Part shown: positions 10,003-13,551 of the stretch, piece by piece
Position numbering within the stretch: position 1 is the first letter of the stretch
How the letters are laid out: every line of letters begins with the position of its first letter
Source of the DNA: a virus
Lineage: Duplodnaviria > Heunggongvirae > Uroviricota > Caudoviricetes
Virus record (IMG/VR): IMGVR_UViG_2897358383_000002
Length of the DNA stretch: 64,000 nt
Strand: one strand, 5' to 3'
Program-made: the position numbers and the translations under genes
The notes under the pieces: model-generated
Databases searched by the model: none
Told to the model about the DNA's origin: nothing
What the model saw: the letters and a program-made list of their open reading frames with translations, nothing else

Positions 10003-10704
10003 TTATTCTGATTCTCGCTCAAAAAATGAGCTGATAAGGGGAAGCCAATCCTCTGACACTTCGCGAGGTCGCGGTTTGCCGTGGAAAAAGATTATTCGGC
10101 AGTCTTTTGGTAATGCCCCATTCCCCCTGGAGTAACGCGCGCTCGCATATTTTGAACCAGGTTCCACAACATCGGCCTTGTAACTTACAAACCATCCTGG
10201 ATACAGATCCTGAAATGCTGGTGTATCATCGCCCATAACCTTTCGTAAGAACCCCTGGTCACCCCAGCACTCAGTAGTGACACAACGAGAAATCCAACCT
10301 TCCGGATCTTGCCAGAATGAACTCCAGATATGCGCTTTAACACTATTTGGTATCCACAGGGCACCGCTGCCACGATATTGTGGATGGTAAAAATCCCTAA
10401 GCATGGTGAAGCTGGTTGGTGGATGCTCTAGGATTGGGCGTATATCACCGGCAATAACCGTGTCCAAATCCAGATAGAACAGATCATCGGTTATATCCGG
10501 TCGGAACAACTCTATTTTCGCCCACCAGCCACGGTACTTTTGCCACTGGTTGATCAATGGGACAACTTTGACGCCAGGTACATGTAAACGCTTCAGGTCT
10601 GTCAGGCAAATAATTTCATAGCCTTTTGGCAGTTGATTAACCAGCCACTGCACATCGGAAGCGTTATAGTCACCACCAGAGCGAAAAACTAAAGCAATCT
10701 TCAT
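10003..10704 (-). CDS. putative nucleotide-sugar glycosyltransferase-like protein (DxD motif)
   Basis: 233 aa; YLDLDTV DxD-like motif; overlaps the start of the next gene (operon). Confidence 0.45.
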
Positions 10705-11393
10705 GCTGCACCATCACCTTTCACTTTCATCAATGTCAGGTTTCCGCAAAATACGGCACCAGTGTCGATATACTGCTGATTCCAGAATGTCTTCGGGCTT
10801 TTCACCGGAGTGTGACCAAAGATAAAACGATCTGCGCCCGAAATTTCGCCACCAATATCATCCATCGAATCACTGATACGCTCGCGCGCCCAGACAACGT
10901 TGAAAAGCGGCACCTCCTTACCGAATTGGTATTCATTATCCGGATAGTCGGCATGGGCTATAACGATAGTTTCTTGCCCGGTGTTCAACTCAATGATATA
11001 GGGCAGACGCTTTACCAGCTCCACCAGCGCCCAGGCTAATATTTCCTGATCAGTGTCCAGCATGAAGAACCATTGTCCGCCATTCATTAGCCAGTTATTC
11101 ACGTTGCCATCTGGACTTAACGCATCAATCATCAGCCGCTCATGGTTCCCCATCACTGCCCTGAACCAGGGCATCTGCAATAGTTCCAGACATTCGACAT
11201 TTTCAGTACCGCGATCAATAAGGTCGCCGACCGATATCAGTAAATCCTGCGCCGGGTCAAAATCCACACGATGGAGTTCGGACATCAGTCTGGTGTAGCA
11301 ACCATGCAGATCACCAACAACCCAGACATTCCTGTATTTGGTACCGTCGATACGGTGATAAATTGTGGGTGCCATCATGTATTCTTCAGCCAT
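10701..11393 (-). CDS. ppp: Ser/Thr protein phosphatase (lambda PPase-like metallophosphoesterase)
   Basis: 230 aa; calcineurin-like motifs GDLHG, GDLIDRG, GNHE. Confidence 0.8.
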
Positions 11394-12001
11394 TCTTTAA
11401 GAGTCATCTGCGGAATACCTCCCATTTTCCCGCATGAAACAACGTCAATCTGTTCACGCGCAGACTGGAATAACAAAGGCAGGTGACTTAGATTTTTTGG
11501 CGTGCCGCCGGAGTGAACGCGTGGTTCTTGTGTAGCGTCAACGCCCACCAGGGCGACATGTTTGAATCCGATATGGAAAGCCAGGTTCAGAGCGCCATAT
11601 GCACTATTGCCGCTGGCAATTTCATTCTCATCTTCGCAAAGTCCGAAATGTGCGGACCAGCGCCACGCCCACCACTCGGGAGAATTCATATTTTTTGGCT
11701 CCATGCCACGTTCAGCCACACGACGGAAGCACAGAACGCCGTCTCTGACTTCACGTTCTTTAACATCGGGTAGTGCCATGCAATAACAAACACCACGGCG
11801 ACGGCGGCCACGACCAACGCGCCGCATATTGTCTGCCGATGGATCAAGTGTGAAAAAATAAGAAGCGCGGTTCAGCCAGTCGATGGCCCCATTGACCGCT
11901 ATAATCGGCACTCCGCGCGGCGCAACAAAGTTTGCGGCGCTTGGGCCACTGCCGACGATAATAACGCGATCACTGCCTCTAAATTTATTCTTGGGAAACA
12001 T
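11375..12001 (-). CDS. Rossmann-like GSGPS-motif protein (Maf/DUF115/MptE-like), paralog A
   Basis: 208 aa; IIVGSGPS...IIAVNGA motif; paralogous to the adjacent upstream gene; predicted start overlaps upstream gene by about 100 nt. Confidence 0.5.
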
Positions 12002-12561
12002 TGAATTGCACTGCTCCTACTTGCATTCAAAATATGTAAATCTGCGTGTTTTTTGCGGGTATCCAGGAACTGCTGTTGCCATTTTGAAATAGACACCTGC
12101 GTTGGATTCCGTAGTGCTTGAGGGTGCGCGCCATGCCAATGAAGGCCGTTTTGCAGAGAACAGTCATAGCCGACTAATACCACTACTTCAGCCCCTGATT
12201 CAGCAGCCAGACTGATAGCCTGCGCGCCGCTATTTACCCCTTCCGCCGGTCCACAATATCGCCTGTACTCCAACGAAAATGATTTCGCCGCCGCCAGGTT
12301 GGCTGTCACTTTGCGGAATCTCCCTCCCGGTATGGTGGATCCGTATTGCTTCCACCATGACAAATCACCGGCGTATAAGGCATAAATGTCATCGAACATC
12401 TGCCAGGAATTGTTAACCGCGATGATTGAACAGCCAGTTTTTTCTATAGCAGCACAGTCCTCACGAGTGAGTGACGGACCGCTACCGACACAAAAAACAG
12501 TCCTAGTCGCCCTGGGTGGTATGTTCATTCTCAGCTGCAAATTCAGCCTCCAGGCGAGCAT
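11899..12561 (-). CDS. Rossmann-like GSGPS-motif protein (Maf/DUF115/MptE-like), paralog B
   Basis: 220 aa; FCVGSGPS...IIAVNNS and VVVLVGYD motifs aligning with paralog A. Confidence 0.5.
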   Translation of the reverse strand: MLAWRLNLQLRMNIPPRATRTVFCVGSGPSLTREDCAAIEKTGCSIIAVNNSWQMFDDIYALYAGDLSWWKQYGSTIPGGRFRKVTANLAAAKSFSLEYRRYCGPAEGVNSGAQAISLAAESGAEVVVLVGYDCSLQNGLHWHGAHPQALRNPTQVSISKWQQQFLDTRKKHADLHILNASRSSAIQCFPRINLEAVIALLSSAVAQAPQTLLRRAECRL

Positions 12562-12724
12562 TCATTTCAGCGATTACCGGGTCCACTACAGCATCTGCTT
12601 CCTGTTCATTACGCGGCATGATCGATGCCAGCGATTCATAATTAGCCTTGGATGACACGATTATTCTCCCGATGTTAATGTGCGCTGTATCAAAGAACAC
12701 ATATGCACTAATTAATTTATTATT

Positions 12725-13303
12725 TCACGTAGTGTACAACCACTTGTCACCGTTCAATACATGCTCAATAGCCTCACCCTTTTTAAGGCTCATGTATTCC
12801 AGGATGGCGGTTATCGCTTGTTCTGCACCATACGCAAGAACGACGTAGTAACCTTCCTCTCTAAGCCTGCGCATCCAGGCGATCTGCTCATGCGTCGGGG
12901 CTTTACCATTTGGTTCTTTAAGCTCAATTCGCATGCCGTGATAAATACCGCATGCTTTATCGAGACTCATGTCCGGATAACCTTTTTTCTGCCCTTCAGC
13001 CTTCATTTTCCCGGCGGTTGCTTTTGAACGTTTCCCTCCGTTAGGCGTTGCATGCAACAGCTCATAGATGTCAGGGTGCTTGCGTTCGAAGTAATCAAAA
13101 ATGAAAACCTGCTCGAAGTGCTCGCAATTTCCGTCGCGCAGGTCTGGGGTCTTTGCCAGTGCTGCAAGTGCCTTCGCATGTGGAGAAACTTCTGTTACCG
13201 GCGCAAGCGATAAGAATGGATCCTTTTTGGTTTTTGGCCTGGACTGCCCCTTATTTCTACGCTCACTAAAAGCCTGAAACTCTTCCTCAGTAAAGCGCAA
13301 CAT
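12725..13303 (-). CDS. VRR-NUC domain nuclease
   Basis: 192 aa; PD-(D/E)xK-type motif GYPDMSL...IELKEPNGK. Confidence 0.6.
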   Translation of the reverse strand: MLRFTEEEFQAFSERRNKGQSRPKTKKDPFLSLAPVTEVSPHAKALAALAKTPDLRDGNCEHFEQVFIFDYFERKHPDIYELLHATPNGGKRSKATAGKMKAEGQKKGYPDMSLDKACGIYHGMRIELKEPNGKAPTHEQIAWMRRLREEGYYVVLAYGAEQAITAILEYMSLKKGEAIEHVLNGDKWLYTT

Positions 13304-13305
13304 AA

Positions 13306-13551
13306 TCAGTCAAATCCTGCCGGTCGCATGCCATATTTACGCTGTTTTGCTGCCTGCTCTTCCCTGTGCCATTGCGCACACTCAGCGTCACAATAGATGC
13401 CTGATTCAATCGGTTCATTGCAGTAACGACACTTACCTGTAAATACCTGACTCACGACCTGTGCCTGCTTTCTGATGTTATCGATGGCCATGTCTTTGAG
13501 AGCTTCTAACTGATTCATGCTCAGCTCTGCATCATCAACACGTTCTGCCAA
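13306..13551 (-). CDS. small zinc-ribbon protein
   Basis: 81 aa; CRYC...CDAEC Cys pairs; stop 2 nt upstream of the VRR-NUC start. Confidence 0.45.
   Translation of the reverse strand: MAERVDDAELSMNQLEALKDMAIDNIRKQAQVVSQVFTGKCRYCNEPIESGIYCDAECAQWHREEQAAKQRKYGMRPAGFD

What the first reader, a model, noticed from the sequence alone, without database searches (positions are those of the whole stretch)
10003..13551. Minus-strand enzyme cluster: DxD glycosyltransferase-like, PP-lambda phosphatase, two GSGPS Rossmann paralogs, VRR-NUC nuclease, zinc-ribbon protein
Six tightly packed genes with overlapping stops and starts encode a DxD-motif protein, a metallophosphatase, two paralogous proteins with an N-terminal (I/V)VGSGPS motif and a conserved LVG(V/Y)D motif (reminiscent of Maf/DUF115/MptE-like nucleotide-sugar or pterin-kinase folds), a VRR-NUC nuclease and a small zinc ribbon. 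The combination suggests a nucleotide or sugar modification module acting on DNA or a structural protein; I cannot tell whether it is backbone or cargo.
Basis: inference. Interest (0 to 1): 0.5.

Follow-up and report, generated by a model that had tools for sequence, protein, structure and literature searches.

The report
Phage P1 pmgO-pmgP-pmgQ glycosyltransferase module
These are the long-known but functionally unexplained phage P1 genes pmgL to pmgQ; three of them (pmgO, pmgP, pmgQ) form a sugar-transferring enzyme module shared by many unrelated phages, which probably decorates a phage protein with a short sugar chain, while the other three genes are unrelated neighbours.

Summary
The six ORFs are real. 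They are phage P1 genes pmgQ, ppp, pmgP, pmgO, pmgM and pmgL (98.4% identical to P1, 100% to an E. coli phage-plasmid).

All family calls hold:
- Ppp is a lambda-type phosphatase.
- PmgO and PmgP are DUF115/MptE-like, related to Maf, Cst-II and WaaZ.
- PmgM is VRR-NUC.
- PmgL is a four-cysteine protein.

The six genes are not one module. Only O, P and Q travel together. They are adjacent in about 20 non-P1 loci from Alpha-, Beta- and Gammaproteobacteria and Bacteroidota. They also occur as natural fusions (O::P, P::Q, Q::P, Q::P::methyltransferase). Ppp, PmgM and PmgL accompany them only in P1-like elements.

In other phages the triad usually sits in late structural operons or beside lysis and terminase genes. 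In Pseudescherichia chromosomes it is interleaved with giant Ig-like adhesin genes.

Best reading: a late-expressed module that builds a short glycan (hexose plus a CMP-activated ulosonic acid, probably Kdo) on a phage protein. That it is a glycan module is well supported; the acceptor and donor are inferred. Published P1 knockouts are viable. The genes are known; the module-level reading is new.

The parts
10003..10704 (-). pmgQ (P7 hdmD): GT8-like retaining glycosyltransferase, 233 aa; core module member
10701..11393 (-). ppp: lambda-type Ser/Thr protein phosphatase (NinI-like), 230 aa; sits in the P-Q 'slot' only in P1-like elements
   Evidence: 1.5e-94 to lambda phosphatase 1g5b. Pfam Metallophos 9e-16. 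The GDLHG, GDLIDRG and GNHE motifs are present. It is absent from all non-P1 O-P-Q loci and occurs alone in D6.
11375..12001 (-). pmgP (P7 hdmC): DUF115/MptE-like transferase, 208 aa; the most conserved, signature gene of the module
   Evidence: All 33 family members hit Pfam MptE-like, best 8.6e-7. Two relatives pass the Pfam threshold, at 44.6 and 44.1 bits. Identity is 50% or more across Alpha- and Gammaproteobacteria and 47% in a Methylophilaceae (Betaproteobacteria) locus. The family has 553 clusters among 1.84 billion representatives.
11899..12561 (-). pmgO (P7 hdmB): DUF115/MptE-like transferase, 220 aa as the longest ORF; the true start is probably the ATG at 12528
   Evidence: It has its own PHROG family with no known function. 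It is not found with O-P-Q outside P1-like loci.
12703..12719 (.). C1 repressor operator Op83 (Oppp) with promoter PpmgN
   Evidence: The operator core is identical to the annotated P1 and P7 operators.
12725..13303 (-). pmgM: VRR-NUC nuclease with an N-terminal extension of about 75 aa; not part of the glycosyl module
   Evidence: 9.9e-17 to VRR-NUC structure 4qbl. The PD...ExK motif (GYPDMSL ... IELK) is present. It is seen only in P1-like loci.
13306..13551 (-). pmgL: 81-aa four-cysteine zinc-ribbon protein, DksA/TraR-like by PHROG only; not part of the module
   Evidence: phrog_54 'DksA-like zinc-finger' at 1.7e-13. There is no Pfam or PDB match.
13552..13700 (.). Divergent promoter region between pmgL and gene 26: sigma-70 promoters, late promoters LPpmgL and LP26, and C1 operator Op82 (13609-13625)
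   Evidence: 148 of 149 bases are identical to the annotated P1 region.
9936..10001 (.). C1 operators Op86a and Op86b and promoter PpmgR, just downstream of pmgQ
8391..9921 (-). [quoted passage not shown]
   Evidence: PMC9024508.

Best explanation
pmgO, pmgP and pmgQ are a cytoplasmic three-enzyme glycosylation module. It is switched on when C1 repression is lifted and again from the late promoter.

Proposed roles:
- PmgQ is a Mn2+/DxD retaining GT8-type hexosyltransferase that would use UDP-glucose or UDP-galactose.
- PmgP and PmgO are DUF115-type transferases of the Maf / Cst-II / WaaZ kind. These use CMP-activated ulosonic acids. In E. coli K-12 the only such donor is CMP-Kdo.

Together they would build one short glycan (hexose plus one or two ulosonic acids). 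Relatives in other phages add methyltransferases or an extra GT-A enzyme. The most likely acceptor is a phage structural (virion) protein made at the same time. The glycan would be a dispensable surface decoration, not an assembly step.

ppp (lambda-type phosphatase), pmgM (VRR-NUC), pmgL (zinc ribbon) and pmgN are separate neighbours.

Shown: the enzyme families, the linkage of O, P and Q, and the genomic contexts. Inferred: the donor sugars, the order of action and the acceptor.
For: Identity and expression:
- The locus is P1 pmgL-pmgQ.
- The late promoter, C1 operators and terminator define one unit from pmgL to pmgS.

Enzyme families:
- A combined O+P profile hits Cst-II at E 0.0022, and the eight best hits are all Campylobacter sialyltransferases.
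- The same profile matches E. coli WaaZ at 91% hhalign probability. WaaZ itself scores as MptE-like at 6.9e-7.
- PmgO (D66/S111/D133) and PmgP (D53/S133/D155) keep an Asp...Ser-22 residues-Asp pattern. In Maf, two acidic residues and a Ser 23 residues before the second one are required for activity.
- Maf enzymes can transfer Kdo to Ser/Thr in E. coli BL21.

Linkage of O, P and Q:
- P and Q are adjacent in every non-P1 locus with enough flank; O is present in most.
- Fusions exist: O::P (P0092), P::Q (P0221, P0289, P0359), Q::P (P0311), Q::P::methyltransferase (P0270) and methyltransferase::P (P0309).
- The slot between P and Q holds a methyltransferase in L008, L101 and L106 and a GT-A enzyme in L103; an FkbM methyltransferase directly follows P in L107.

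Context:
- Inside head/neck/tail operons with overlapping reading frames: L005, L006, L007, L101, L102, L106 and an ENA contig.
- Between or beside lysis genes and terminase: L003, L004, L008, L103, L105.
- In five Pseudescherichia/UBA7338 genomes the three genes are interleaved with a 1178-aa inverse-autotransporter adhesin and two other Big_1 proteins.

Phenotype: P1 single knockouts of pmgL-pmgQ and ppp plate normally and keep anti-restriction activity (the table cites that survey).
Against: - No glycosylated P1 virion protein has been reported. The virion proteome paper and two cryo-EM papers do not mention glycans, although none looked for them.
- The acceptor is inferred only from gene neighbourhood.
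- The three enzyme families are also those of host LPS core synthesis (WaaZ; WaaJ and WaaO are GT8), so lipid-linked acceptors remain possible.
- P1 PmgO and PmgP themselves score below the Pfam threshold.
- In some loci (L107 beside ribonucleotide reductase; L109) the context is not structural.
Confidence: 0.45

Rival explanations
1. The O-P-Q module remodels the host LPS core or another envelope glycan late in infection. For example it could add a third Kdo and extra hexoses, so that the P1 receptor (the core glucose) is masked on debris or on the infected cell. That would reduce loss of progeny or block superinfection.
For: - Each enzyme has an LPS-core counterpart in E. coli K-12: WaaZ (O+P profile at 91% hhalign probability) and the GT8 enzymes WaaJ and WaaO.
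- Every host identified is Gram-negative.
- Four loci place the module beside lysis genes.
- From general knowledge: P1 adsorbs to the LPS core, and waaZ overexpression truncates the outer core.
Against: - The genes are repressed in the lysogen (C1 operators), and in siphophages they are translationally coupled to late structural genes. New LPS made minutes before lysis could replace little of the outer membrane.
- The chromosomal copies lie among adhesin genes, not LPS genes.
Confidence: 0.2
2. The module glycosylates a host protein or a non-virion phage protein (host takeover, or protection of an intracellular factor), not a structural protein.
For: - Maf modifies a secreted host protein.
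- The adhesin island shows that non-phage proteins can be the associated partners.
Against: - Placement directly after capsid or connector genes recurs in at least seven phage lineages.
- There is no growth phenotype in P1.
Confidence: 0.1
3. PmgO and PmgP are pyrophosphokinases like MptE or thiamine pyrophosphokinase, and the cluster makes or modifies a small molecule or nucleotide rather than a glycan.
For: - Pfam names the family after the archaeal pterin pyrophosphokinase.
Against: - The only sequence-level PDB hits are CMP-sialic acid transferases.
- WaaZ is matched at 91% probability.
- PmgP is fused to a GT8 domain and to sugar-type methyltransferases.
Confidence: 0.06
4. One reading: all six genes form one module that modifies DNA or nucleotides. 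This would combine glycosyltransfer, phosphatase and nuclease activities.
For: - The genes are co-directional and tightly packed in P1.
- A VRR-NUC nuclease is adjacent.
- Phage DNA glycosylation systems exist (bioRxiv 10.1101/2023.12.21.572611, listed).
Against: - VRR-NUC, the zinc ribbon and the phosphatase never accompany O-P-Q outside P1-like elements.
- None of the examined loci carries a hydroxymethylase, TET enzyme or other base-modifying gene next to the module.
- Knockouts do not change anti-restriction activity.
- P1 DNA is cut normally by many restriction enzymes (general knowledge).
Confidence: 0.04

Closest known systems
Maf flagellin nonulosonic-acid O-glycosyltransferases (DUF115; structure 5mu5)
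   Different: PmgO and PmgP are only about 190-210 aa. They have the catalytic domain alone, without Maf's N- and C-terminal acceptor-binding domains. There is no sequence-level hit to Maf. They come as a pair with a GT8 enzyme, and they are encoded by phages, not flagellar loci.
Campylobacter Cst-I / Cst-II sialyltransferases (CAZy GT42)
   Different: Similarity is marginal. Cst enzymes act on lipooligosaccharide and use CMP-Neu5Ac, which E. coli K-12 lacks. The position of a catalytic His could not be mapped.
WaaZ, the Kdo III transferase of the E. coli K-12 LPS core
   Same: WaaZ belongs to the same MptE-like superfamily (Pfam 6.9e-7). The O+P profile matches it at 91% hhalign probability over 89 columns. 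It uses the only CMP-ulosonic acid available in the P1 host.
   Different: O and P are not members of the WaaZ family. NCBIfam TIGR04437 gives E 0.099. The PmgP profile alone reaches only 14% probability. None of 33 PmgP-family members hits Pfam WaaZ_KDO_III.
GT8 retaining glycosyltransferases (glycogenin, Skp1 galactosyltransferase Gat1, GlyE, LgtC)
   Different: PmgQ does not reach Pfam Glyco_transf_8 at E 0.1. It is a minimal 233-aa version from a small phage-borne family of 41 clusters.
Mycobacteriophage virion glycosylation (Che8-type phages; cited from my own knowledge of Freeman et al. 2023; several papers listed cite a work with 'Virion glycosylation' in its title)
   Same: In both, phage-encoded glycosyltransferases are dispensable for growth and are proposed or shown to decorate capsid and tail proteins.
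   Different: The enzyme families and hosts differ (Actinobacteria). For P1 no glycoprotein has been shown.
Adhesin-dedicated cytoplasmic glycosyltransferases (Aah/TibC with AIDA-I/TibA; HMW1C with HMW1) - from general knowledge
   Same: The Pseudescherichia island places O, P and Q directly among genes for giant Ig-like inverse-autotransporter adhesins. This is the same gene logic as adhesin plus dedicated glycosyltransferase.
   Different: The enzyme families differ, and no experimental link exists.

Membership tests
CAZy GT8 / Pfam Glyco_transf_8 (PmgQ) | GT-A fold closest to solved GT8 enzymes | tested here: met
CAZy GT8 / Pfam Glyco_transf_8 (PmgQ) | DxD metal/nucleotide motif plus the C-terminal H..G..KP(W) motif and the DQ motif | tested here: met
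   D79-L-D81, G148-D149-Q150 and H208-G-x-P-R-P213 are invariant or nearly so in 26 sequences. They align with the Gat1 motifs.
CAZy GT8 / Pfam Glyco_transf_8 (PmgQ) | Passes the Pfam family model | tested here: not met
   There is no Pfam hit at E up to 0.1. Only a family profile reaches GT8 structures (1.7e-6). PmgQ is a distant GT8-like family.
DUF115 / Pfam MptE-like PF01973 (PmgO, PmgP) | Passes the Pfam model | tested here: inconclusive
   P1 PmgP scores 21.2 bits and PmgO 23.4 bits against a cutoff of 34.6. All 33 PmgP relatives hit the model, and two pass the cutoff: P0092 at 44.6 bits and P0258 at 44.1 bits.
DUF115 / Pfam MptE-like PF01973 (PmgO, PmgP) | Rossmann-like fold shared with Maf, MptE and GT42 | tested here: met
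Maf flagellin glycosyltransferases | Central DUF115 domain flanked by N- and C-terminal domains for flagellin recognition; encoded in flagellar glycosylation loci | tested here: not met
   PmgO and PmgP are single-domain proteins of about 200 aa. The loci are phage late operons. They may work like Maf but are not members.
CAZy GT42 (Cst-I / Cst-II) | Significant sequence similarity, including the CMP-binding motifs | tested here: inconclusive
   The combined profile gives E 0.0022 with two colinear motifs. Single-family profiles give E about 0.1.
WaaZ Kdo III transferase family (TIGR04437 / PF27901) | Passes the family model | tested here: not met
   TIGR04437 gives E 0.099 and 12 bits against a cutoff of 200. 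None of 33 members hits PF27901. The relationship holds only at superfamily level.
CMP-ulosonic acid transferase activity (PmgO, PmgP) and UDP-hexose transferase activity (PmgQ) | Demonstrated donor and acceptor | not testable with these tools
   This needs enzyme assays or glycoproteomics.
Lambda-type PPP phosphatase (Ppp) | GDxHG, GDxxDRG and GNHE motifs and close similarity to lambda phosphatase | tested here: met
   1.5e-94 to 1g5b. Pfam Metallophos 9e-16. The motifs are in the translation.
VRR-NUC (PmgM) | PD-(D/E)xK core with similarity to solved VRR-NUC | tested here: met
   9.9e-17 to 4qbl. GYPD...IELK is present. Pfam VRR_NUC is just below its cutoff (21.2 against 23.8 bits).
DksA/TraR C4 zinc finger (PmgL) | Passes the family model with four cysteines in canonical spacing | tested here: inconclusive
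   phrog_54 at 1.7e-13, but no Pfam or PDB hit. The spacing is CxxC-x9-CxxxC.
Known anti-phage defence systems (PADLOC) | Any model hit | tested here: not met
   None of the seven proteins hits a model.

The most novel reading that the evidence does not exclude
P1, and hundreds of other phages of Gram-negative bacteria that carry the P-Q(-O) module, naturally decorate virion proteins with a Kdo-containing O-glycan. They would do this by diverting host CMP-Kdo from the LPS pathway. This would be the first natural Ser/Thr-O-Kdo protein glycosylation, a linkage so far seen only as a side activity of Maf enzymes in E. coli. It would also be the first virion glycosylation system in phages of Gram-negative hosts, with a bacterial adhesin-glycosylating counterpart in Pseudescherichia.
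Probability: 0.15. Interest if true: 0.75.

Novelty: new variant of a known kind. Interest (0 to 1): 0.45.

Why it matters
P1 is one of the most used phages in genetics, yet its pmgL-pmgQ block has carried the placeholder 'putative morphogenetic function' since 2004. Knockouts showed no phenotype.

Separating a mobile three-enzyme glycosylation module from unrelated neighbours gives that block a concrete hypothesis, and the deletion mutants needed to test it already exist.

If the acceptor is a virion protein, surface glycosylation of phages would extend from mycobacteriophages to phages of Gram-negative bacteria. That bears on immune recognition and stability of therapeutic phages, and on P1-based delivery vectors. 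It would also add compact CMP-ulosonic acid protein glycosyltransferases of about 200 aa to the glyco-engineering toolbox.

If the acceptor is LPS, it would be a new late-acting receptor-masking strategy.

Tried and rejected
- Single-sequence searches of PmgQ, PmgO and PmgP against PDB sequences gave nothing significant; family profiles were needed.
- The PmgP profile alone found no PDB relative.
- The first PmgO-versus-PmgP profile comparison was invalid, because alignment A2 contained the O::P fusion protein and so matched itself. I replaced it with HMM searches using a cleaned alignment.
- A viral-contig scan with the PmgP alignment returned only P1 copies at 98-100% identity and gave no diversity.
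- PADLOC found no defence-system hit.
- I considered filing PmgP under the WaaZ family and rejected it. Only a superfamily link holds.
- I looked for glycan or extra-density reports in two P1 structure papers and found none.
- Literature searches for DUF115 in phages and for capsid glycosylation gave nothing on this module.
- My simple greedy ORF picker gave spurious antisense ORFs in the high-GC locus L106. I re-read that locus with the ORF listing.

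
Full report
**What is there**

The window is a P1-type phage-plasmid. Positions 9700-13900 are 99.9% identical to Escherichia phage vB_EcoM-673R5, 98.4% to the P1 reference and 98.2% to P7. Positions 10003-12561 are 100% identical to E. coli plasmid NZ_CP033882.1, and 794 plasmids match this stretch.

In the P1 annotation (P7 names in brackets where they differ) they are:
- pmgQ (hdmD)
- ppp
- pmgP (hdmC)
- pmgO (hdmB)
- pmgM (upf81.2)
- pmgL (upf81.0)

One is the small gene pmgN (12503-12658, or 12503-12700 with the longer start). 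The other is the C1 repressor operator Op83, between pmgM and pmgN.

Further C1 operators lie just downstream of pmgQ (9936-10001) and upstream of pmgL (13609-13625). The pmgL/gene 26 intergenic region, which in P1 carries the late promoter LPpmgL, is 148/149 identical to P1. The only strong terminator follows pmgS, at 8391-8419.

So the unit runs pmgL-M-N-O-P-ppp-Q-R-S. It is driven by a late promoter and by internal C1-controlled promoters, and it is silent in the lysogen.

**Family assignments**

- *Ppp* matches lambda phosphatase at 1.5e-94.
- *PmgM* matches a solved VRR-NUC at 9.9e-17 and has the PD...ExK motif.
- *PmgL* has four cysteines and a PHROG 'DksA-like zinc finger' hit at 1.7e-13, but no Pfam or PDB match.
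- *PmgP* was not modelled. All 33 PmgP-family members sampled hit Pfam MptE-like, and two relatives pass the threshold.

Three further results tie O and P to CMP-sugar transferases:
- A combined O+P profile hits Cst-II at E 0.0022, and the eight best PDB hits are all Campylobacter sialyltransferases.
- The same profile matches E. coli WaaZ, the Kdo III transferase, at 91% hhalign probability.
- WaaZ is itself MptE-like at 6.9e-7.

O and P are therefore distant paralogues in a superfamily whose known transferases use CMP-activated ulosonic acids (Neu5Ac, Pse/Leg, Kdo). They are not members of the Maf, GT42 or WaaZ families proper.

**Which genes belong together**

HMMs for O, P and Q were run on 23 loci: three P1-like and 20 from other elements.

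P and Q are adjacent wherever there is enough flank, and O is present in most. Examples:
- Citrobacter rodentium prophage: O-P-Q.
- Pseudomonas: O-P-Q followed by a putative GT-A enzyme (homologue of a weak Pfam hit).
- Ochrobactrum: P-Q.
- Alloalcanivorax: P-methyltransferase-Q-O.
- Zhongshania and Brevundimonas: O-P-methyltransferase-Q.
- Commensalibacter: O-P-GT-A-Q.
- Methylophilaceae: P-Q.
- Buttiauxella: Q-P.
- Sinomicrobium (Bacteroidota): O-Q-P-FkbM methyltransferase.

Natural fusions occur in both orders: O::P (P0092), P::Q (P0221, P0289, P0359), Q::P (P0311), Q::P::methyltransferase (P0270) and methyltransferase::P (P0309).

By contrast, tblastn finds Ppp, PmgN, PmgM, PmgL, PmgR and PmgS only in the three P1-like loci. 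ppp occurs alone in phage D6, among nin/ea-type accessory genes, and alone in about 99 plasmids.

So the functional unit is O-P-Q, with P-Q as the minimal core. In P1, ppp occupies the slot between P and Q that elsewhere holds a methyltransferase or an extra glycosyltransferase. The nuclease and the zinc-ribbon protein are unrelated neighbours behind a separate promoter.

PmgP is the signature gene. Identity is 50% or more across Alpha- and Gammaproteobacteria and 47% in a Methylophilaceae (Betaproteobacteria) locus. The family is small: 553 clusters at E up to 1e-3 among 1.84 billion representatives.

**Where the module sits**

- In at least seven phage lineages it lies inside the head-neck-tail operon, usually right after the major capsid or connector gene and with overlapping reading frames. 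These are L005 (after a collagen-like protein), L006, L007, L101, L102, L106 (after the tail terminator) and an ENA contig (after Mtd_N fibre-like proteins).
- In five others it lies between or beside the lysis cassette and the terminase.
- In five Pseudescherichia/UBA7338 genomes the three genes are chromosomal. They are interleaved with a 1178-aa inverse-autotransporter (intimin/invasin-type) adhesin and two further Big_1 proteins. Among the flanking ORFs I scanned, none had a phage hallmark domain.

**Most likely mechanism**

*Shown:* three cytoplasmic enzymes of glycosyltransferase families, genetically and physically coupled, accompanied in relatives by sugar-type methyltransferases, and expressed with late genes.

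*Inferred:* they build one short glycan.
- PmgQ would transfer a hexose from a UDP-sugar with retention.
- PmgP and PmgO would add ulosonic acid from a CMP-sugar. In E. coli K-12 the only such donor is CMP-Kdo. Kdo is universal in the Gram-negative hosts in which the module is found.
- Maf enzymes have been shown to put Kdo on Ser/Thr in E. coli BL21 (bioRxiv 10.1101/2020.06.03.131540).
- Both O (D66/S111/D133) and P (D53/S133/D155) keep an Asp...Ser-22 residues-Asp pattern. This resembles the residues required in Maf. I mapped it by spacing only, not by superposition.

*Also inferred:* the acceptor is a phage structural protein. This rests on the operon contexts and on the adhesin island.

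I put about 0.8 on 'a glycan-building module'. I put about 0.45 on the full statement with a virion protein as acceptor.

**Published phenotypes**

Single knockouts of pmgL, M, N, O, P, ppp and Q plate normally and keep anti-restriction activity (PMC9024508). CRISPRi agrees, except for pmgN (PMC10695390). This fits a dispensable decoration and argues against the old 'morphogenetic' label. Neither the P1 virion proteome nor two recent cryo-EM studies mention glycans, but none looked for them.

**Rivals**

- *LPS or envelope remodelling (0.2).* It is suggested by the WaaZ and GT8 parallels and by the lysis-gene neighbours. It is weakened by late-only expression and by the adhesin context.
- *Host or non-virion protein acceptor (0.1).*
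- *Pyrophosphokinase or small-molecule chemistry (0.06).*

**Novelty**

The sequence, the genes and even rough product names ('glycosyltransferase', 'alpha-2,3-sialyltransferase', 'metallophosphoesterase', 'VRR-NUC') are already in public records.

What these tools add is the delimitation of a mobile O-P-Q module, its fusions, its late and structural placement, its bacterial adhesin-linked counterpart, and the CMP-Kdo argument. I found no paper describing this.

I rate it a new variant of a known kind (phage-encoded or adhesin-dedicated protein glycosylation built from known enzyme folds). Interest is moderate: the biology is plausible and directly testable with existing mutants, but it is unproven.

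Noticed in passing
window 11899-12001; L004 8510-8603: pmgO and pmgP overlap out of frame by 103 nt in P1. Their homologues in a Citrobacter rodentium prophage overlap by 94 nt, where the gene caller had truncated the PmgP homologue. An in-frame O::P fusion exists in another phage (P0092), and a partial E. coli O111 protein (P0060) scores as an O-P hybrid. This could mean translational coupling or occasional frameshift fusion.
   Followed up: partly
window 12503-12700: pmgN is a 51-65 aa ORF with a good Shine-Dalgarno sequence before the GTG at 12658. CRISPRi scored it essential, but its deletion is viable (PMC10695390 against PMC9024508). It has no homologue next to O-P-Q outside P1-like elements.
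   Followed up: partly
window 11899-12561 (PmgO residues C134, H141, H143, H146): The PmgO family has an invariant GYDCS...HWHG.H motif (one Cys and three His) that PmgP lacks. It may be a metal site. I have no explanation for it.
   Followed up: no
L095-L098 and L100 (Pseudescherichia / UBA7338 chromosomes), e.g. L095 2357-11873: A chromosomal island has the order O(-), a 1178-aa inverse-autotransporter adhesin(-), P(+), Q(-), then 999-aa (Big_1 plus RCC1 repeats) and 494-aa (Big_1) proteins. It looks like a dedicated adhesin-glycosylation locus.
   Followed up: partly
window 8391-8419 (minus strand): A strong intrinsic terminator (11-bp stem followed by a T run) lies right after pmgS. It is the only convincing terminator between 8300 and 13800.
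   Followed up: yes
window 8439-9701 (PmgS): PmgS is a 420-aa coiled-coil protein with weak SMC/Rad50 and LmuB-like hits (E 1e-4 to 1e-3). These are probably coiled-coil noise. The gene is nonessential in P1.
   Followed up: no
window 44001-46000: G+C drops to 36% here. The stretch is the P1 sim/icd/ant immunity region, 95.6% identical to the P1 reference and 99.8% to vB_EcoM-673R5.
   Followed up: yes
window 7844, 23460-23487, 26993, 42445, 44116: Further matches to the 17-bp C1 operator consensus (nine in the window against 0.24 expected). They include an overlapping pair at 23460-23487.
   Followed up: no
L109 5747-6592: In an unrelated phage contig, a P::Q fusion followed by an FkbM methyltransferase lies next to a convergent metallophosphoesterase gene. 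This faintly echoes ppp sitting between P and Q in P1 and may be coincidence.
   Followed up: no
public annotation of P1-family records: The misspelling 'norphogenetic protein' from the P1 record has spread as the product name for PmgP and PmgO homologues across many genomes. One PmgQ homologue is named 'phosphohydrolase', probably by transfer from the neighbouring ppp.
   Followed up: no
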